A stretch of DNA of 64,000 nucleotides from a virus (Duplodnaviria > Caudoviricetes), in the IMG/VR virus record IMGVR_UViG_3300032038_000001, positions 32,001 through 96,000 of that record. One strand, written 5' to 3'. The position numbers and the translations under genes were made by a program. Positions 14,143 to 28,412 of the stretch are shown here, piece after piece. Each line of letters opens with the position of its first letter. Within the stretch, counting starts at the first letter, position 1. The notes below the pieces were generated by a model. The model was given only the letters and a program-made list of their open reading frames with translations. It did not search any database and was not told where the DNA came from.

Positions 14143-14991
14143 TTATCCCTTATGAAGTACCTTACCAATTGCGGCAAGAGGACCAGATGACGATGTTGTC
14201 AGCTTCTTATAATATACCTTCATTCTCTTAGTAGCCTCAGACTTATACTTTTTAACAAGCTTAGCTCTAAGAATCTTTCTCATTCTATTTACTTTCTTAA
14301 GTTTCCTATAATCAGGATCATTATGAGCAGATGCAGAAACATTAACAGCAAGTGCAAAAAGTTGCTTCTGCTTTGCCTCCTTATCAAGACGAACAATCAT
14401 CTTCTTATTATAGTTCTTCTTTTCAGTAAACAGACCAAGGTCTGATGCCATTTCATTTATATCTGATTCAAGAAGCAGACCTTCATTTATAGCAGCCTGT
14501 ACATCCTCGGCAGATTCTATAAACTTCTTCTGTTCTTCCTTATTCATTTCATCCTTAATCAGGACAGTAGTTGCAGCAACACCCATCATGTCATCTGCTT
14601 CCTGCTCTTCCTCAGGTGAGAGTTCTACCTCGTCATCTTCATCATCAACAAGAGCATCTGCCTCATCATCAGAAAGTTCTGCGTCAAGTTCAGCTAACTC
14701 TTCGTCGCTCATTTCATCAGGATCGAAATTATCGTCATCATCATCTTCTTCTTCAGAATCTTCTGCATCAGAAACAACTCCGATGGTATCATCATCACAG
14801 TCATCTCCATATTCATTTCCACATCCATCTCCGCATTCGTTGCCGCACAGATTACCACACTCTTCAGTGTCAGGTTCTGACTGGGCATCAATATCTTCAT
14901 CTCTCATTGTATCGTCATCTTCTGATTCTGTAAAGATATTTCCCCTCTTAGAAGGAAGGGGGCTGTTAAGTAAATCTTTAAAATTACTCAT
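14143..14991 (-). CDS. virion/scaffold-like protein with acidic N-terminus and basic C-terminus
   Basis: Long D/E tract then K/R-rich domain after LFTE; AACA-N6-TA at 15026-15037. Confidence 0.55.
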   Translation of the reverse strand: MSNFKDLLNSPLPSKRGNIFTESEDDDTMRDEDIDAQSEPDTEECGNLCGNECGDGCGNEYGDDCDDDTIGVVSDAEDSEEEDDDDDNFDPDEMSDEELAELDAELSDDEADALVDDEDDEVELSPEEEQEADDMMGVAATTVLIKDEMNKEEQKKFIESAEDVQAAINEGLLLESDINEMASDLGLFTEKKNYNKKMIVRLDKEAKQKQLFALAVNVSASAHNDPDYRKLKKVNRMRKILRAKLVKKYKSEATKRMKVYYKKLTTSSSGPLAAIGKVLHKG

Positions 14992-15150: not shown

Positions 15151-17439
15151 ATGAATTATATGAATGCAATAAATATAAAAGAGAAAAGTGATTTCATTGA
15201 TAAATATGTAAAAAAGATGACAAAAATAATGCATAAATGTAATCCTGATTGGGATAAAGATAAAATAAAAAAAGTAATATATAAAATGATAGAAGAACAG
15301 GGGATGAGCCCTGATATAAATTTGGATAATAATTATACCGGAAATAACAAAGATACTACATTGATAAGCGTATTTGATTGGATTCTTAAGACTAACCCAC
15401 TTATAGCTGGAAATGGTACATTTTATAGAAATCAAAATGAAGCATTGAATCCAATAGCTGTCATGCTTGATGAATGGGCTGCAAACAGAAAATCATACAA
15501 GAGTCAGATGTTCTCTGTTGGTGAACTTGAAGGATTTGATAGTTATCACTATTCAGAACTTGATAGATTACAACTTAATGAAAAAATAAACATGAATTCA
15601 TGGTATGGTGGTTCAGGTGCACCATCTGCGGCATTTTATTCTAAATGGAGTGGTCCTGCAACTACATTAACTGCTCAATCGGTTATTTCTACAGCGGAAA
15701 CTACATTTGAAGCATTTCTTGCTGATAACTATGTGTTTTTAAATCTCACTGAATTAATGGAATGGATACAAATAGTACTTTCCGAAGAATGCGAGATAGA
15801 TAAATGGGTCGAACACAAATCCATTGATGATGTAATGGGAAGACTTAGTAAATCTATTTTACAGCCTGAATATAATGATGAAGATATTTTATATTCATTC
15901 TTAAGTTCTTTAAGTGATGAAGACTTAACAAGATTATATTATAAAAATAATATGATAGAATTTATTAATAATCATGAATTTATTCAAGATATTATAAAAA
16001 CAATTTTTTCATCTGTTGAAAATCTTGAACATGTTGACGAAAAAGATAGTGAGTGGTTAAATAAAATACCAGATCATTATTATAATGATTTTATTAATAA
16101 AAGTGCTCATGACTGGAATAAGTTTGTCAATAAACAATATTTCATGGATCCTAATAGCCCCCCTAAAAGTATTAAAGATATACTATCAGTTTTATCTGAC
16201 TATTTAATGAAATATTGTTATGTCAGATACTTATCTGTAGATAGAATTTATAGACTAAGAAATTTTCAAAGAAGAGTTGTAACAGTTATTGATACAGATT
16301 CAAACTTTTTATCTCTCGATACTTTAATTAATTTTATCTTTGATAAAATAGTTAAAGATGAGACATATGGAAGAGATACTGAATATAACCAGTTTATTAT
16401 TGTCAATACAATAACTTTTACTATTACTAACGTAATAAAAGATATGTTTGAATATTATGGTAAATGCGCAAATATTCCCGAAGAGTATAGACCAAGATTT
16501 GACATGAAAAATGAATTTTTCAATACACTTCTTGTAATCGGTAAAGCTAAAAAAAGATATATATCCAAACAGAGACTTCGTGAGGGAAATCTTTTAGTTC
16601 CATCAAAATCAGATATTAAAGGTTTTGATTTGAAAAAAGCATCAACATCTGAATATGCAGAAAAAATATTTATGAAATTAATTAATGATCATATTCTAAA
16701 TTCTGATACTATAGAATTAAGAGAAATGATTAAAGGTATAAAACAATTTAAGGAAGATATAAAAGATTCTATTCTTAGAGGTGAGAGAACTTTCTTACCC
16801 AATGGTAGTGCTAAAGAACTTGGTGCATATAAAGACCCAGGAACAAGTCAAAGCGTACGTGGTGCTTTAACATGGAATCTTCTTTATCCTGATAATACCA
16901 TTGATTTCCCGTCTAAAGTTAGTCTTGTTAAAATGAATATATTTAAGGAAGAAGATATAGAAGATTTAAGAGATAAAGAACCTGATATATATAATAAGAT
17001 TATCAATGGAGTATTTAATGATACAACAGGAATATTTGTTACTAAATCATGGGATAATGGCATAGACTATGTTAATCCAAAGAAAAAGAAATGGTATGAT
17101 GATATTCCAAATAAATATAAGACAAAATATAAAAAACTTGGACCACAGGCATGGAATGAATTTGTAGATAAATTCTTGGAAGAAAATAATAGTCCTGAAA
17201 AAATAAAAGGAAACTGGATATATAAGAAAAAAGGATTACAGGTTTTGGCAATACCTAGTAACGCAACAATACCCGAATGGGCATTACCATATATAGATTA
17301 CAGTACAATGATAAATAATATTATTGCACCATTTGAACCAGTCCTTGAAATCTTTGGAGCACAGTTTACGGAAGAAGGAAAGACTAAAAACGGTGTTAAT
17401 AGAAAAACTAATACAATAACAAATATTATAAAATTTTAA
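15151..17439 (+). CDS. family B DNA polymerase, split phiKZ/AR9-type subunit
   Basis: KINMNSWYG (motif B), DTDS (motif C), KKRY, KG; motif A and exonuclease motifs not seen. Confidence 0.88.
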   Translation: MNYMNAINIKEKSDFIDKYVKKMTKIMHKCNPDWDKDKIKKVIYKMIEEQGMSPDINLDNNYTGNNKDTTLISVFDWILKTNPLIAGNGTFYRNQNEALNPIAVMLDEWAANRKSYKSQMFSVGELEGFDSYHYSELDRLQLNEKINMNSWYGGSGAPSAAFYSKWSGPATTLTAQSVISTAETTFEAFLADNYVFLNLTELMEWIQIVLSEECEIDKWVEHKSIDDVMGRLSKSILQPEYNDEDILYSFLSSLSDEDLTRLYYKNNMIEFINNHEFIQDIIKTIFSSVENLEHVDEKDSEWLNKIPDHYYNDFINKSAHDWNKFVNKQYFMDPNSPPKSIKDILSVLSDYLMKYCYVRYLSVDRIYRLRNFQRRVVTVIDTDSNFLSLDTLINFIFDKIVKDETYGRDTEYNQFIIVNTITFTITNVIKDMFEYYGKCANIPEEYRPRFDMKNEFFNTLLVIGKAKKRYISKQRLREGNLLVPSKSDIKGFDLKKASTSEYAEKIFMKLINDHILNSDTIELREMIKGIKQFKEDIKDSILRGERTFLPNGSAKELGAYKDPGTSQSVRGALTWNLLYPDNTIDFPSKVSLVKMNIFKEEDIEDLRDKEPDIYNKIINGVFNDTTGIFVTKSWDNGIDYVNPKKKKWYDDIPNKYKTKYKKLGPQAWNEFVDKFLEENNSPEKIKGNWIYKKKGLQVLAIPSNATIPEWALPYIDYSTMINNIIAPFEPVLEIFGAQFTEEGKTKNGVNRKTNTITNIIKF

Positions 17440-17532
17440 AAAAAATAGGGCATGATACTTCTATATCATGCCCTATTAGATTTTATAATAAAAAATCATT
17501 TATATATAAACAAAATTATAGCAATGAATTAC

Positions 17533-17605
17533 GCGTCATTAGCTCATCTGGCAGAGCACAAAACTTTTAATTTTGGGGTACGGGGTTCGAGTCCCCGATG
17601 ACGCA
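17533..17605 (+). tRNA. tRNA-Lys(TTT)
   Basis: GCGTCAT/ATGACGC acceptor stem, CAAAA-CTTTTAA-TTTTG anticodon arm, GTTCGAG T-loop; no encoded CCA. Confidence 0.93.
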
Positions 17606-17609
17606 TTAA

Positions 17610-17695
17610 GGAGAAGTACCCAAGTGGTTGAAGGGTCTGGTCTTGAAAACCAGTAGGCTGTAACAGGTGCAAGGGTTCGAATCCCTTCTTCTCCG
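17610..17695 (+). tRNA. tRNA-Ser(TGA)
   Basis: GGAGAAG/CTTCTCC acceptor stem, CTGGT-CTTGAAA-ACCAG anticodon arm, long variable arm. Confidence 0.93.
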
Positions 17696-17747
17696 TTATT
17701 AATAATATATAAGCCGCTGTGGTGGAATAGGCAGACACAAGGGACTT

Positions 17748-18390
17748 TAAAACTAATTTATATTGGATATTTATATTTTTTTTTGAAAAGGAATGAAATA
17801 TATGAAGATAGATAATATGTATATCTATGTGAATCAGAAAGATCATAGGGTAAGAGCCTATTATAAAGATTCAAATGGTAAATTACATACTAAATCATAT
17901 CCAAGAATTTTAATGGAAAAGAAATTGGGCAGACCATTAAAGCCATATGAAGATGTTCATCATATAGATGGTAATCCTGAAAATAATTCTTTAGAAAATC
18001 TAGAGATAAAGATTCATGGCAAACATCAAAAAGAACATAATCACAAGAAATATAAACCTAAGAAACATAAATGCGATCTATGTGGTAAAAAATTCACATG
18101 GTCTGTTAATGCTCAAAGGTTTCATGCTAGGTGGTTAAGAAAAGGTATTAAAAACCTATTCTTTGTTCCAAGCATTGTATTGGTACATATGGTAAACAAG
18201 AGCAGATTAGAAGGAATTCTAATGCTGAATGACAGCTAAACGGTGAAGCCTTTCCCAATGGTAACGCCGTGCCAAATACTTTTTAAAGTATGTGCGTAGA
18301 GACTTTACGCTGTCTATCCAGAACGGATAAAGACAAAGTCCAGACCACAAACATAAGTTTTTTTATGGCAGTGAAAACTGTAGTGGTAAG
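17748..18390 (+). mobile_element. group I intron in tRNA-Leu anticodon
   Basis: Follows U and ends in G; P3 GACAGC/GCTGTC, P7 GACTTT/AAAGTC, R-like GTAGAGACT, S-like AAGACAAAGTCC. Confidence 0.9.
17793..18239 (+). CDS. intron-encoded HNH homing endonuclease, apparently frameshifted near 18150
   Basis: MEKKLGRPL...VHHIDGNPENNSLENL...H HNH motif; CDLC zinc half-site, with CSKHC in the -1 frame. Confidence 0.85.
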   Translation: MKYMKIDNMYIYVNQKDHRVRAYYKDSNGKLHTKSYPRILMEKKLGRPLKPYEDVHHIDGNPENNSLENLEIKIHGKHQKEHNHKKYKPKKHKCDLCGKKFTWSVNAQRFHARWLRKGIKNLFFVPSIVLVHMVNKSRLEGILMLNDS

Positions 18391-18487
18391 AAAATCCCTC
18401 GGTAGCAATATCGTACGAGTTCAAGTCTCGTCAGCGGCATTATCAAAATAAAAAAATATTTTTTTTATTTTGTATAAACATTATATT

Positions 18488-18858
18488 AATGGGAATAAAA
18501 AAATCCCATGAAGATAACACTGTGGGTGAGAGAGCTAATAAAGCACAATGCAGCTTATCAGAATTTAGAATTGCAGCAACGGGTGCGTGAAGCTCAACAA
18601 CAAAAATCCATCTGCAGTAGAGCCGCATACCATGCGGTAATTTATCAAATAGGCGGCAGCCGACCTTGTAGATAAGGTATACGCACTGAGTATAAAATCG
18701 ATGTACAGAGAAGTTGAAAAGGTCATATAAACAGATAACGTACGAATCGGTTGGACTCTGAGTAAATGTATGCGTTGATCTCGTGCGATAAATAACGCCG
18801 CCTTTAAAAAATAATTTATTTTATATAAATGAGTGAGTGGTTATTAACCACTCACTCA
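18488..18858 (+). ncRNA. candidate structured ncRNA A
   Basis: Lies between AACA-N6-TA (18477-18488) and terminator hairpin (18830-18858); GC-rich relative to flanks; AGGCGGC/GCCGCCT long-range stem. Confidence 0.5.
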
Positions 18859-18920
18859 ATTTCCCATTTCATAAAACAAATATATAAAAAATTTTTTATT
18901 AGAAAGGATTGATTTTTATT

Positions 18921-19277
18921 ATGAATAAGAACTATCAGGGTTCAGTAAGATTTATTGATGATGAATCGTTACTTACTGAGTCATTTGGTATGACCGGAGA
19001 TATTGTATTTGTAATAGTTCCTGGCAAAACTACGACAACCGAAAAATATGTCAAGGCATCATCTACAACATCAGGTGCTCTTAAAGTTGTAGCTAATGAT
19101 GCTGATCCTTTTGATTCTACAACACAGATCAAGATTGGTGATGTTTCATCGGATGTCGAGGGTGTTGAAGTTGGTGACTATGTAGTAAAGAAAGAAATTT
19201 CTACTACAACTCCTGCAACATCTTCAGCAGCATATGTAAAACTTGATAAGGAATGGATTGCATTCCCAACTGCTTAA
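18921..19277 (+). CDS. small late/virion protein
   Basis: GAAAGGA RBS, AACA-N6-TA at 18875-18886, Thr/Ser-rich. Confidence 0.65.
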   Translation: MNKNYQGSVRFIDDESLLTESFGMTGDIVFVIVPGKTTTTEKYVKASSTTSGALKVVANDADPFDSTTQIKIGDVSSDVEGVEVGDYVVKKEISTTTPATSSAAYVKLDKEWIAFPTA

Positions 19278-19296
19278 AAAATATACTAATAAATAA

Positions 19297-19340
19297 AAAA
19301 GATGAACTAGGAGAAATTTATTCTCCTAGTTCATCTTTTA
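19297..19340. terminator. bidirectional intrinsic terminator
   Basis: AAAAGATGAACTAGGAGAA...TTCTCCTAGTTCATCTTTT inverted repeat. Confidence 0.8.
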
Positions 19341-19451
19341 AAGTAGACAGGGTTGCATACACATTTATGGGCTTTTGAGCATATTCAACATTAATTTTAT
19401 GTTCATATAAAAAAAGTGAATTATTTTTTTATTTTACTACAACATATAATT

Positions 19452-19865
19452 AATAGAATTTCCATGTTAGAGTGTTAATAGTTAACTCTATTCACCGTTG
19501 GAGATCTAGTAAGTGCCGCATGAACCTATACAACGGTTGAGCGTGACGAACAAGTTCGGTGTACAAACCGTATCAGTTGACGCAACCTGAGCGGCGATTC
19601 CTAGACAGCGCAGCTATAGTGAATAATTCAAGTCTCAGAACATGTTGGAGATAGCATTGAGTATCAGTATACAAGTCTATGATCATATGATAGCTAGTCG
19701 TGGTATTTTCATACCTTTCGAAGGCGTCAGTGGAGGACTATGTTACTTGAGAAAGACGAAGGAGATGTGTTAAAGAGATTTTAAATGCGCTGTCTTTTGA
19801 AAATTATTTATCTTTATTATAAAAATATGTGAGAGTGAGGATTTCCTCACTCTCACATATTTTTT
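19452..19865 (+). ncRNA. candidate large structured ncRNA B
   Basis: Lies between AACA-N6-TA (19441-19452) and terminator (19825-19865); many nested and crossing helices incl. AGACAGCGCA/TGCGCTGTCT; no ORF >=60 aa. Confidence 0.65.
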
Positions 19866-19895
19866 TATTATCTATACTATTACATGTTTTGATAT

Positions 19896-21086
19896 TTACT
19901 TCTTCCTCTTTTTAAGTTCAGATATCTGAACTTTGGCTTTTTCTATTTGCTGCATACGGCTATTATTAGCATTTTGTATATTTCTTATAGTATTTCTATT
20001 TTTAAATTTATTTTTAGATAATTCTTCTACTCGTTTATTGGCACGTTCAATTTGTCGTTCTAATAACTCTATGTATGATTCTTGATCCATGATTTTACTG
20101 TCAATTCCACCATACCCATCCTTATTATATAAGTCTGGATGTTTGTCAATTGCATATAATTCTGCTCTATTACTCATATCTATTGCTTTCTTATCTTCAT
20201 CGTCTCGTCTTTTTTCATAGTTCTCATAGCTTTTATCAGCTGCATAATTAACTGCAGCCCCCGTGGCTATACCAGCGGCTATACCAGCAGCAGCTATGCC
20301 AACACCAGTTTTTATCTTTTTATTTCTGAATTTTTTATAGTCTTCATATTTCTTTTTTTCGGCTTCAGTAAGTTTTTCCTTCTTCTTTATCTTTTCTTTT
20401 ATTCTTTTTATTTCTTCTTTATATGCATTACTTGCTTCTAACAGTAATATCATCTTATCTTCAGATAACTTACCTTCATTATATTTTTCAAATATCAAAT
20501 TTGTTATTAACACACTCTCATTAACTTCATTAAATAATGATTTATTTTTATCGATAGCTTCAAGTATATTATAATATTTCTTTTGTGTTGATTTTGGAAG
20601 GATTTTTGGATTTATCTTCTTGAGTTGCATTTTTATATTATTGATTATACTCAATATATTTGCATCCACATATTTTCGTCCATTAGTTGCAGAATGAATT
20701 ATGAGACCAATAGCAGCAAAAATTAATGTAAAAAATCCAGCAGCAATTCCTAAAACTGTTAAATCTAAAAGTATGGCTCTTATTAAAACAATAGAAGATA
20801 ATATTGAACATATAATTGCTCCAATAGCCTTTGATTCTTGTAATCCTAATTCATAAGGTTCTTTTTCAAGAATCATACATATTTTGATAATATCGTCACC
20901 ATATTTATCAATAAATTTCTTACCTTGTGATGCATTGATAAGTTCAGAAGGTAAGGCATCCCGAATTTCACATATTTTATCTACAAGCCCGTCAAATGGA
21001 AAATTAAATAATTTTTCAGTATAAATATCATAATCAAAACTATCATTATTACATTCATAAATTGAATCGTCTAAAAAATTATACAT
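19896..21086 (-). CDS. probable virion protein with two hydrophobic segments (polyprotein-like)
   Basis: Late promoter 21119-21130; internal LIFEKY.EGK.SED.MILLLEA module; ATG at 21086 has the better RBS. Confidence 0.6.
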   Translation of the reverse strand: MYNFLDDSIYECNNDSFDYDIYTEKLFNFPFDGLVDKICEIRDALPSELINASQGKKFIDKYGDDIIKICMILEKEPYELGLQESKAIGAIICSILSSIVLIRAILLDLTVLGIAAGFFTLIFAAIGLIIHSATNGRKYVDANILSIINNIKMQLKKINPKILPKSTQKKYYNILEAIDKNKSLFNEVNESVLITNLIFEKYNEGKLSEDKMILLLEASNAYKEEIKRIKEKIKKKEKLTEAEKKKYEDYKKFRNKKIKTGVGIAAAGIAAGIATGAAVNYAADKSYENYEKRRDDEDKKAIDMSNRAELYAIDKHPDLYNKDGYGGIDSKIMDQESYIELLERQIERANKRVEELSKNKFKNRNTIRNIQNANNSRMQQIEKAKVQISELKKRKK

Positions 21087-26078: not shown

Positions 26079-28412
26079 TTACATAAATTTGCCAGTAAAC
26101 TCATCCAGCATAAATGGTGTTAATATCTTTTTATCAGTAGGATATTTATCCGGCTGATCGGTACAGATGAGATCAGCTTCTTCAGCTGTATCTACAATAA
26201 TTCCACGTGCGGGAGTATTGTACCTAATGATATCTGCCATGCTAGTACGATTTCTCATCAGCACTGATCTTACAGCATTTCGGATAGTACTGTGAGTTGA
26301 ATTTATATTTCTGGTTGCGCCCTGAACATCTGCAGTCATATCAACCCAGTATACTTCTCTATCAACCAGGTCTATGACAACTGGTATAACCGAAGTCGAT
26401 TCTGAGTTTATGTCCATGTTCATTTCAACCTTCTCAGGAATGAAAATAGATTTCTGATCAACTATATCGTTGTCAGTCATTTCCATATACCCTGCTCTTG
26501 AGTTGAATTTCTCAAATGGCATTGACGTAAATGAGTGTACTGTTATAATACAGTATCGGTAACCTGCTGTTACAGCCTTGTTGATATTAACATCAACAAA
26601 CTCCGTTGAACCAAGACCGTCCTCTGGTCCACCATTCACAATGTCACCACTGTGGATACATATATAATTATTGTCACTATCTCTTAGCCTCATATTAGTA
26701 TAGTTTACATACTCAATCACTTTTGGCTTGTCGAGACTATCAATGAAGATTGCAGATAAATCTTCATCAACTCTTATCTCACAGCCAGTATCATCATTAT
26801 AGTTCGTCCACCAACAGAACGACCTTAAAATGTTTGTGTCTGGTTTGAGTTTCCATTTGCTTCCTCTAGTACAAGGTCGCATGCTATCGCTAGCAGATCT
26901 CTGGCTGAAGGGTACAATATACCCTTCGAAACTGGGATCTATATAGATACCACCTATATAAGGTTTTCCCATATTTCTCATTTTAAGAACCAATGAATTA
27001 ATTCTAATTATGTCCTTACATATACTAGAATCAATTGGTGTCATTGTATTCTCTATTGAAAATACCTTTGAGATATCTCCTTTTATGATAAAATCTCGCA
27101 TGGGTTTATTTTCCATACGATCTTTAAAATGATCTGTTATCTGGTATAGCATCAGGCTAGGTAAGTCTTCAATTATATCTCGATAAATTGATAACACTTC
27201 TCTTTTTTCTTCGATAGAAGAATTCGAGAGCTTTGAAAGAAGTCTGTCTAAAGACCTTCCAAGCATGCCAGGTCTGGTCTTGAGTTCATTAGCAGCAGCA
27301 ATAATCTGACCATTATTGATGAGTTTTTCAACTTGAGAATTGAAGCTTTCAGGTCTCTTACCATTTCTAATTGATGAGAAAGCCCTTACCGCACCCGTGT
27401 AGATATTGATATATTTACCTGGGTGAATTTTTTCACCAACACGTTTCCAGATTTCTGGGTAACGCCACATATCATCTATGACGTTATAGATATTCTTTTG
27501 GCACAGATTATTCAACGCGTTCATTAAAAATCGATATTCTCGATTTTTGAGGTTTACAAACCTCGTCTTCTTACTAAGACTTACATCTCCTCCAGAAAGT
27601 GCAACGTAAAAACGAAGAATATCTGTTGCAGTTTTGAGATTTTTCTCAACCTCAACAAAATTAATTTTATTATTTTTGCTGAGTTGACCAAGAACGAACA
27701 TTGCATTTTCTTTAAAAGGCATCTCTGGTAACACCATTGGAACATACAAATGTTCAATATAAAAGGCGATGAACCTCTTATCGTCATCAGACAATGAAAC
27801 TGGCGACGTTGATATGTTTATAAACATATCGTCGATCTCTGTCAGAGATTTTACCAATGAAATTCTCTTAAGAGAATTGAGTGAATTTTTAATAATGGTT
27901 TCAAAATCTGATGAGCGTTTTTCTTTTTCAGCTACAAGATAGCTGAGTCTTTCAGCATCTCTAGGCTGAAAGATTCCATCTGTCATATAATGAATTACGG
28001 CATTAAACAGTAATTCATCGTCAGACATTTCCATGACTTCGTACGGAAATCCTGGATACATCGGGATGTAAACTTTATCATCCCCGGTTATTTTTCGAAC
28101 CGTTTCTACAATGGATTTTAAAGCTCTACCTATGTCAGCAAGTGTCTTTTCACTTGCTCCATTATATTCATTGATGATAAAGTTATTATCATCAGGAGTT
28201 ATAATGTACCCCATTCGCATTAATTCAGCATTAGCGGTTGCCAGAACTGCTTCAATAGTAGAATTTCTGGCTTCTATGTTTTCCGACTTCTCGGGAATGA
28301 TAGGCCAGAAAACCGAACATCTTCTTTTCATAAGATGTTCATTTAATCTGTCCATAATAAATGGACTGTTAAAGTTAACATTAGTTCTTGTGTTTGTACT
28401 TGTTTTCATCAT
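26079..28412 (-). CDS. large helical protein with C-terminal TerD-like domain (Ter-associated, possibly Ro/TROVE-related)
   Basis: TATDILR, ..HPG, RPGMLGRSLDRLL in the helical part; DLSA, HSGDI.NG, EFVD in the TerD-like part. Confidence 0.65.
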   Translation of the reverse strand: MMKTSTNTRTNVNFNSPFIMDRLNEHLMKRRCSVFWPIIPEKSENIEARNSTIEAVLATANAELMRMGYIITPDDNNFIINEYNGASEKTLADIGRALKSIVETVRKITGDDKVYIPMYPGFPYEVMEMSDDELLFNAVIHYMTDGIFQPRDAERLSYLVAEKEKRSSDFETIIKNSLNSLKRISLVKSLTEIDDMFINISTSPVSLSDDDKRFIAFYIEHLYVPMVLPEMPFKENAMFVLGQLSKNNKINFVEVEKNLKTATDILRFYVALSGGDVSLSKKTRFVNLKNREYRFLMNALNNLCQKNIYNVIDDMWRYPEIWKRVGEKIHPGKYINIYTGAVRAFSSIRNGKRPESFNSQVEKLINNGQIIAAANELKTRPGMLGRSLDRLLSKLSNSSIEEKREVLSIYRDIIEDLPSLMLYQITDHFKDRMENKPMRDFIIKGDISKVFSIENTMTPIDSSICKDIIRINSLVLKMRNMGKPYIGGIYIDPSFEGYIVPFSQRSASDSMRPCTRGSKWKLKPDTNILRSFCWWTNYNDDTGCEIRVDEDLSAIFIDSLDKPKVIEYVNYTNMRLRDSDNNYICIHSGDIVNGGPEDGLGSTEFVDVNINKAVTAGYRYCIITVHSFTSMPFEKFNSRAGYMEMTDNDIVDQKSIFIPEKVEMNMDINSESTSVIPVVIDLVDREVYWVDMTADVQGATRNINSTHSTIRNAVRSVLMRNRTSMADIIRYNTPARGIIVDTAEEADLICTDQPDKYPTDKKILTPFMLDEFTGKFM

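What the first reader, a model, noticed from the sequence alone, without database searches (positions are those of the whole stretch)
19452..19865. Large multi-pseudoknotted ncRNA candidate (RNA B) with its own promoter and terminator
Seen: ORF-free, GC-enriched unit starting at AACA-N6-TA and ending at a hairpin with a U-tract. Helices found by eye: UAGAGU/ACUCUA, UCUAG/CUAGA, GCCGC/GCGGC, GAAC/GUUC, CGGU/ACCG, a perfect 10-bp AGACAGCGCA/UGCGCUGUCU about 180 nt apart, GCUAU/AUAGC, UAGUC/GACUA, GGUAU/AUACC. Crossing pairings: ACCGUUG/CAACGGU, UGACGC/GCGUCA, UCAAGU/ACUUGA. No tmRNA tRNA-like ends, RNase P GAGGAAAGUCC or group I P7 seen. Known: ornate RNAs such as ROOL and GOLLD occur near phage tRNAs but are longer. 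Inference: possibly a new class of large structured phage RNA.
Basis: partly seen in the sequence, partly recalled or inferred. Interest (0 to 1): 0.8.

Follow-up and report, generated by a model that had tools for sequence, protein, structure and literature searches.

The report
Jumbo-phage RNA with leucine-tRNA-derived segment
A cattle-gut jumbo phage carries, beside its tRNA genes, a gene for a roughly 345-base folded RNA that shows up in rumen RNA samples, matches no catalogued RNA family and appears to contain a reworked piece of a leucine tRNA; its job is unknown.

Summary
It lies in a 250-kb AR9/PBS1-related phage behind an AR9-type late promoter (predicted +1 = 19452). Contigs from four independent rumen metatranscriptomes cover it and all stop at 19790-19791, so the stable RNA is probably about 345 nt and excludes the terminator. 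Five strain variants show frame-breaking indels and near-invariant core helices (1/96 vs 38/253 variable columns). Overall covariation is not significant; no distant homolog was found. New here: 19556-19595 matches the 3' half of tRNA-Leu(UAA) in register (26/40; second-best site in the genome; above 3000 shuffles), while D-loop GG, T-loop, UAA, A73 and CCA are lost. No Rfam family matches. Best guess: a stable late scaffold or decoy RNA of the ROOL/GOLLD kind; function not shown. The scan has noted other uncatalogued jumbo-phage RNAs and tRNA-Leu mimics on other genomes, none resembling this sequence.

The parts
19441..19452 (+). AR9-type late promoter AACA-N6-TA; predicted +1 = A19452
   Evidence: Consensus and +1 from PMC5312081; motif lies upstream of 45/231 ORFs in this genome vs 11-24 for other spacer lengths; identical in all variants
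19452..19799 (+). RNA B, inferred stable transcript of about 345 nt (strand inferred from the promoter)
   Evidence: RNA-library contigs 19473-19790, 19475-19790, 19549-19790 and 19604-19791 in four studies; no conserved ORF
19454..19508 (+). 5' hairpin (19454-64 with 19499-508; inner helix 19468-73 with 19485-90)
   Evidence: Pair probability 0.77-0.98, z -2.4; 0 of 61 columns variable in four strains
19515..19596 (+). Domain 1, closed by GCCGC/GCGGC; its 3' half (19556-19595) matches the variable arm, T arm and acceptor strand of tRNA-Leu(UAA) in register, without elbow, anticodon, A73 or CCA signatures
   Evidence: a rival non-cloverleaf fold
19557..19570 (+). Variable-arm-like hairpin, 4 bp with a 6-nt loop, as in Oscillospirales tRNA-Leu(UAA)
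   Evidence: invariant in six strains
19577..19584 (+). Loop segment at the T-loop position; candidate 8-bp long-range pairing with 19766-19773; rival partners 19541-19547 and 19472-19478
   Evidence: Two G-U to A-U changes; chance about 0.05; rival local helix preferred by RNAalifold
19603..19795 (+). Domain 2, closed by the perfect 10-bp helix 19603-12 with 19786-95
   Evidence: Only stem above chance; pair probability 0.97; invariant; RNA contigs end inside its 3' strand
19619..19672 (+). Irregular hairpin in domain 2 holding the three compensatory pairs found (19622/19668, 19624/19666, 19636/19648)
   Evidence: structure fitted after seeing the variants; not significant in an unbiased null; low pair probability in the window sequence alone
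19745..19800 (+). Invariant purine-rich 3' segment with the candidate long-range partner
   Evidence: 0 of 56 columns variable vs 20 of 99 fourfold sites in the primase gene, p 8e-5
19821..19864 (.). Intrinsic terminator hairpin, probably shared with the convergent 403-aa gene; not part of the stable RNA
   Evidence: not reached by the four RNA contigs that cover RNA B

Best explanation
RNA B is a non-coding RNA made late in infection by the phage's own RNA polymerase from 19452, then trimmed back to the foot of its last helix (about 19795-19799). Terminal helices would protect both ends. It has a 5' hairpin, a domain built from a recycled tRNA-Leu(UAA) 3' half, and a 193-nt domain closed by a 10-bp helix. 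It most likely acts in trans as a stable scaffold or decoy, not in decoding: it keeps the acceptor helix and long variable arm of a leucine tRNA but cannot be charged or read codons, and so may bind tRNA-handling proteins (synthetase, modifying enzymes, tRNA-cutting defence nucleases) beside the phage tRNA cluster. Shown: sequence features, strain conservation, presence in RNA libraries, likeness to tRNA-Leu. Inferred: start, strand, timing, 3' trimming, fold details, every functional step. Odds: real ncRNA gene about 0.85; tRNA-Leu origin of domain 1 about 0.65; scaffold or decoy role about 0.35.
For: RNA contigs in 4 of 4 studies laid, ending within one base of each other, while the upstream 119-aa gene is covered fully in only one run and the 19280-19470 spacer is not bridged. 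Purifying selection on helices and ends. Frame-breaking indels. Promoter. A model of domain 1 picks out tRNA-Leu as its best non-self hit. A profile of 70 tRNA-Leu(UAA) 3' halves ranks 19556-19595 second in 250 kb (26.8 bits) and above all 3000 shuffles (24.2 vs maximum 16.0). In-register identity is 28.6/56 for Leu(UAA) vs 16-20 for most other tRNAs. ROOL and GOLLD lie near phage tRNA islands, and some GOLLD RNAs embed a tRNA (PMC12990946).
Against: No distant homolog. Compensatory pairs 2 vs 1.7 expected in an unbiased null. Folding energy is ordinary. Contigs cannot show strand, start or level, the runs were chosen for holding this stretch, and no DNA run was laid beside them. Gapped alignment and nhmmer do not find the tRNA likeness significant (z 0.85; E 15), and the profile window was chosen after seeing the match; RNA A also gives a weak tRNA-Leu match. 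RNAalifold prefers a non-cloverleaf fold of domain 1. No partner protein was identified.
Confidence: 0.4

Rival explanations
1. The RNA self-assembles without protein into dimers or cages, as ROOL, GOLLD, OLE and ARRPOF do, perhaps as virion cargo or storage. The loop at 19577-84 has two copies of a 7-nt partner (19472-78, 19767-73), and GUUAAC palindromes lie at 19481-86 and, in most strains, 19576-81.
For: Duplicate partner sites; late promoter and position beside a tRNA cluster like ROOL and GOLLD.
Against: A 7-nt partner is expected by chance with p about 0.19; shorter than ROOL (550-600 nt) and full GOLLD (700-830 nt); no family match.
Confidence: 0.2
2. The tRNA-like domain is a processing signal: host RNase P, Z or similar enzymes cut beside it and release the 193-nt domain 2 as the working RNA.
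For: One study's contig covers domain 2 only (19604-19791); another lacks 19473-19548.
Against: Two studies give one contig across all domains; T-loop and D-loop signatures and a 7-bp acceptor stem, which RNase P needs (PMC4201824), are absent; the domain-2-only contig has depth 6.
Confidence: 0.15
3. A decaying tRNA-Leu duplicate plus flanking sequence that is transcribed and stable but does nothing.
For: Found in one narrow clade only; absent from the same slot in the 79%-identical sister clade; ordinary folding energy; no significant covariation.
Against: 0/61 and 0/56 variable columns at the two ends and 1/96 in core helices against 20/99 at fourfold sites; dedicated promoter kept; same 3' end in four studies.
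Confidence: 0.1
4. A ribozyme of a new or disguised class; two loops are joined in one library (90-nt loop 19553-19642).
Against: No hammerhead, group I, group II, RNase P, HDV, twister, pistol or glmS core by pattern or Rfam; the joint has a 4-nt microhomology typical of template switching and appears in one run only.
Confidence: 0.07
5. A base-pairing or Y-type regulatory RNA that targets mRNAs or a Ro60 protein through its invariant 3' segment.
For: Invariant unpaired purine-rich 19745-19785, which holds one GNCGAAG heptamer like the bacterial Y RNA motif.
Against: No TROVE/Ro60 gene in the genome; no YrlA match; no strong complement elsewhere in the phage genome; one such heptamer is expected by chance about one time in ten (my estimate).
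Confidence: 0.08

Closest known systems
ROOL (RF03087) and GOLLD (RF02032) large phage RNAs
   Same: Stand-alone, multi-domain, non-coding, beside a phage tRNA cluster, function unknown; some GOLLD RNAs embed a tRNA.
   Different: About 345 nt vs 550-830 nt; no covariance-model match; dense pseudoknotting and oligomers not shown; the embedded piece is a degenerate tRNA half, not an intact tRNA.
Class II tRNA-Leu(UAA) of Oscillospirales and of this phage
   Same: GCCGC/GCGGC acceptor helix, 14-nt variable arm, and ungapped spacing from the anticodon arm to the acceptor strand; 26/40 identity to the consensus 3' half.
   Different: No D-loop GG, no TTCRA T-loop, T stem out of register, no UAA, G instead of A73, no CCA, embedded in a longer RNA; not found by ARAGORN or RF00005.
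Bacterial Y RNAs (YrlA)
   Same: tRNA-resembling module inside a non-coding RNA, also in phages (PMC4201824).
   Different: YrlA keeps D and T arms and lies next to Ro60; RNA B lost those signatures, is three times longer, and the genome has no TROVE gene.
tmRNA
   Same: Similar length; tRNA-like part plus a larger folded domain.
   Different: The tRNA-like part is internal, the ends do not pair, there is no CCA and no conserved tag frame.

Membership tests
ROOL | Match to RF03087 (gathering 99 bits), about 575 nt | tested here: not met
   No match at E 10 locally or in the genome; the control genomes did not ring either, so the genome search has no positive control
GOLLD | Match to RF02032 conserved 3' domain | tested here: not met
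   Best genome hit 5 bits elsewhere; none here
ROOL/GOLLD-like ornate RNA (as a kind) | Encoded near a phage tRNA island as a stand-alone unit | tested here: met
   tRNA-Lys, Ser, Leu(intron) end 1.0 kb upstream; own promoter and terminator
ROOL/GOLLD-like ornate RNA (as a kind) | Extensive covariation-supported structure with several pseudoknots | tested here: inconclusive
ROOL/GOLLD-like ornate RNA (as a kind) | RNA-only oligomers | not testable with these tools
   Needs biophysics or cryo-EM
tRNA-Leu | Acceptor helix, long variable arm and class II spacing | tested here: met
   (acceptor only 5-6 bp)
tRNA-Leu | D-loop GG, T-loop TTCRA, 7-nt UAA loop, A73, free 3' end for CCA | tested here: not met
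   Sequence; no tRNA call
tmRNA | Paired 5'/3' tRNA-Ala-like ends with CCA and a tag frame | tested here: not met
RNase P RNA, group I, group II, SRP, T-box | Conserved core motifs or Rfam match | tested here: not met
Small self-cleaving ribozymes | Known catalytic core motifs | tested here: not met
   Patterns recalled from memory and Rfam; activity itself not testable
Bacterial Y RNA (YrlA) | Adjacent Ro60/TROVE gene and conserved D/T arms | tested here: not met
   No TROVE in the genome while the control rang in 2 genomes; host Ro60 not tested

The most novel reading that the evidence does not exclude
RNA B founds an undescribed class of large phage RNAs in which a tRNA-Leu gene was recycled as a folding module: its acceptor and variable arm are kept as a handle for tRNA-binding proteins while the old T-loop is rewired into a long-range or intermolecular pairing, giving an abundant late decoy or self-assembling scaffold that shields phage translation from host tRNA-directed defence.
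Probability: 0.2. Interest if true: 0.8.

Novelty: new variant of a known kind. Interest (0 to 1): 0.52.

Why it matters
Large phage RNAs near tRNA clusters (ROOL, GOLLD) have solved structures but no known function or origin. A compact 345-nt example that is detectable in rumen RNA and seems to carry a recycled tRNA-Leu half offers a candidate route from tRNA to large structured RNA, and is small enough to probe, mutate and image. Interest is held down because the family is one narrow clade here, covariation is not significant, most of the proposed pseudoknots failed, and no function is shown.

Tried and rejected
Homolog hunts that gave nothing or chance hits: blastn in phages and plasmids; DNA patterns in viral, genome and metagenome contigs (checked in 20, 28, 48, 63); protein-led locus searches; covariance models on sister-clade loci, 33 viral records and the own genome: no paralog, and no alignable homology to RNA A or to the sister clade's RNA. 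A full-length model could not be calibrated. My own three compensatory pairs look significant against the tool's shuffle (2/500) but not against a null that relocates mutations, so I do not count them as proof. Helices 14 and 15 and one pair were entered off register and are ignored. Gapped alignment to tRNA-Leu was not significant. Uncovered parts are not evidence of absence. Ro60/Y RNA and hammerhead leads from earlier notes were tested and not met. The candidate list of Fremin et al. 2023 (PMC10690425) could not be checked: no supplements are held, so prior listing there is not excluded.

Full report
Setting. The window lies in a 250,395-bp virus record. Its DNA polymerase is closest to those of Bacillus jumbo phages AR9, PBS1 and BpSp among cultured phages (27-30%). 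Sequencing runs that hold the region are mostly bovine gut, and the phage's tRNA-Leu exon matches Ruminococcus and other Oscillospirales tRNAs, a hint at the host only. Gene order: DNA polymerase, tRNA-Lys, tRNA-Ser, tRNA-Leu(UAA) with a group I intron and HNH gene (17713-18439), RNA A, a 119-aa gene, RNA B, then a convergent 403-aa gene.

Observation. AACA-N6-TA is the AR9 late promoter with +1 at the last base (PMC5312081) and is enriched upstream of ORFs in this genome (45/231 vs 11-24), giving +1 = 19452. But the number of stems of 6 bp or more equals chance (11 vs 11.2), only the 10-bp helix stands out (2/150 shuffles), and the strong folding score comes from the terminator (z -4.4 with it, 0.05 without). 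Helices found by eye are therefore not evidence on their own.

Expression. I laid four rumen metatranscriptomes from four studies on 16400-20900. RNA B is covered by stand-alone contigs: 19475-19790, 19473-19790, 19549-19790 (two pieces) and 19604-19791, with depths of 15, 148, 147-187 and 6. All stop inside the 3' strand of the 10-bp helix, about 30 nt before the terminator, although DNA contigs run on. RNA A behaves alike (ends at 18802 in two runs). Limits: these are contigs, so strand, start and level are not shown; the runs were chosen for holding this stretch; no DNA run was laid. I take it as moderate evidence for a discrete stable RNA of about 345 nt.

Conservation. Through the neighbouring protein I obtained five distinct strain variants, 93-94% identical. 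Indels of 1, 2, 4, 5 and 6 nt rule out a conserved reading frame. In four strains, fourfold sites of the primase gene vary at 20/99, whereas 19452-19512 varies at 0/61, 19513-19602 at 5/90 and 19745-19800 at 0/56; 19603-19744 varies at the neutral rate (31/142). Helices taken from the single-sequence fold vary at 1/96 columns vs 38/253 elsewhere. Recombination can inflate these p-values, but the pattern fits selection on structure. The sister clade (polymerase 79% identical) has a different RNA in the A slot and no RNA B in the stretch I could see. No distant homolog was found in any collection.

Fold. Kept in all strains: the 5' hairpin, GCCGC/GCGGC, AACC/GGUU, CGGU/ACCG, the 10-bp helix and GGUAU/AUACC; being invariant, they carry no covariation. 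Not kept: UGACGC/GCGUCA (69% paired, broken independently on each side), GCUAU/AUAGC, UAGUC/GACUA, and one pair each of ACCGUUG/CAACGGU and UCAAGU/ACUUGA; shorter 5-bp cores of the last two remain possible. The variants instead suggest an irregular hairpin at 19619-19672 with three compensatory pairs, and an 8-bp pairing of 19577-84 with the invariant 19766-73 in which two G-U pairs become A-U. Both were fitted after the fact. An unbiased null gives 2 supported compensatory pairs against 1.7 expected, the 8-bp match has p about 0.05, and RNAalifold pairs the same segment locally with 19541-47. So 'multi-domain, folded' is supported and 'multi-pseudoknotted' is not.

tRNA-Leu link. A covariance model of domain 1 gave, unprompted, an intron-less phage tRNA-Leu(UAA) as its best non-self hit (14 bits, E 0.12; up to 18 bits on records preselected for this tRNA). 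From the anticodon-arm position to the acceptor strand, 56 nt align without gaps. A profile of 70 tRNA-Leu(UAA) 3' halves ranks 19556-19595 second in the whole genome after the real tRNA (26.8 bits; 26/40 identical to consensus) and above all 3000 shuffles of RNA B (24.2 vs maximum 16.0). Other tRNA types score lower in register. Caveats: the half was chosen after seeing the match (in five of seven windows tried the site ranked second or third; the 5' half and the full-length profile did not find it), and gapped alignment and nhmmer do not reach significance. The D-loop GG, T-loop, UAA, A73 and CCA are absent, so it is not a tRNA and may no longer fold like one. I put tRNA-Leu ancestry at about 0.65.

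How it most likely works. Inferred: the phage's non-virion polymerase makes the RNA late; exonucleases trim it to the 10-bp helix; terminal helices keep it stable. With no frame, no known catalytic core and no downstream gene to control, it should act in trans. The retained acceptor helix and long variable arm are the parts of tRNA-Leu that proteins recognise (own knowledge), so my best guess is a scaffold or decoy for tRNA-handling proteins, working with the adjacent tRNA cluster (about 0.35). Rivals: RNA-only oligomer as in ROOL, GOLLD and ARRPOF (0.2; PMC12990946), processing precursor of domain 2 (0.15), neutral relic (0.1), Y-type or pairing RNA (0.08; no TROVE gene), ribozyme (0.07). None is tested.

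Comparison and novelty. No Rfam family matches at gathering or E 10, and seven literature searches found no description; the Fremin 2023 candidate set could not be checked. It resembles ROOL and GOLLD in setting but is not a member. Earlier notes of this scan describe other uncatalogued jumbo-phage RNAs and a phage tRNA-Leu mimic family said to keep the D and T arms and replace the anticodon arm (unchecked). RNA B shares no sequence words with them and shows the opposite pattern: elbow lost, variable arm kept.

Verdict. Probably a real, expressed, clade-restricted ncRNA gene with a probable tRNA-Leu-derived segment; fold only partly determined; function unknown. New variant of a known kind; interest 0.52.

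Noticed in passing
window 18488-18805 (+): RNA A: own late promoter, RNA contigs ending at 18802 in two studies, a compensatory CGCAC/GTGCG to CGTAC/GTACG change, weak likeness of 18659 onward to the 5' half of tRNA-Leu, and an 11-nt motif shared with RNA B (18685, 19653). It diverges more between strains (84%) than RNA B.
   Followed up: partly
L090:9481-9882 and L086:72-460: The sister clade carries a different, about 400-nt GC-rich RNA in the RNA A slot, closed by GGCGGCTC/GAGCCGCC; no Rfam match.
   Followed up: partly
window 19403-19297 (-); L090:10598-10716; L119:8003-8100: A small unit of about 95 nt with its own AACA-N6-TA promoter and terminator, back to back with RNA B, is alike in three phage clades (shared TTGAATA start and CCTG near the end): candidate third small RNA.
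   Followed up: partly
window 19553-19642, run X8: A 120-nt contig reads as a 90-nt circle joining two AACA sites that both lie in predicted loops (depth 187, one run only). Template switching, tandem duplication or a real circle: unexplained.
   Followed up: no
window 17713-18439; L090:9114-9436; L119:4742-4828: tRNA-Leu(UAA) has a group I intron with HNH gene here, an ORF-less 239-nt intron in the sister clade, and no intron in a third; the intron is covered by RNA contigs.
   Followed up: partly
window 18909-19277; L084:5001-5516: The gene between RNA A and RNA B varies in length by whole internal repeats (118, 171, 194 aa); no Pfam or PHROG family; weak feature likeness to tail-fibre repeat proteins (under 0.9).
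   Followed up: partly
window 26079-28412 (-): The 777-aa protein resembles TerD-family and Prok-RING_4 clusters by structure, not TROVE by profile.
   Followed up: partly
L119:7350-7950 and 14150-14420: Three copies of a short unit (hairpin, ribosome-binding site, 40-50-codon ORF, terminator) resembling small toxin-antitoxin or mobile cassettes.
   Followed up: no
genome C1:144150-145420 (outside the window): Two nested group I intron-like segments on the minus strand with repeated core motifs.
   Followed up: no
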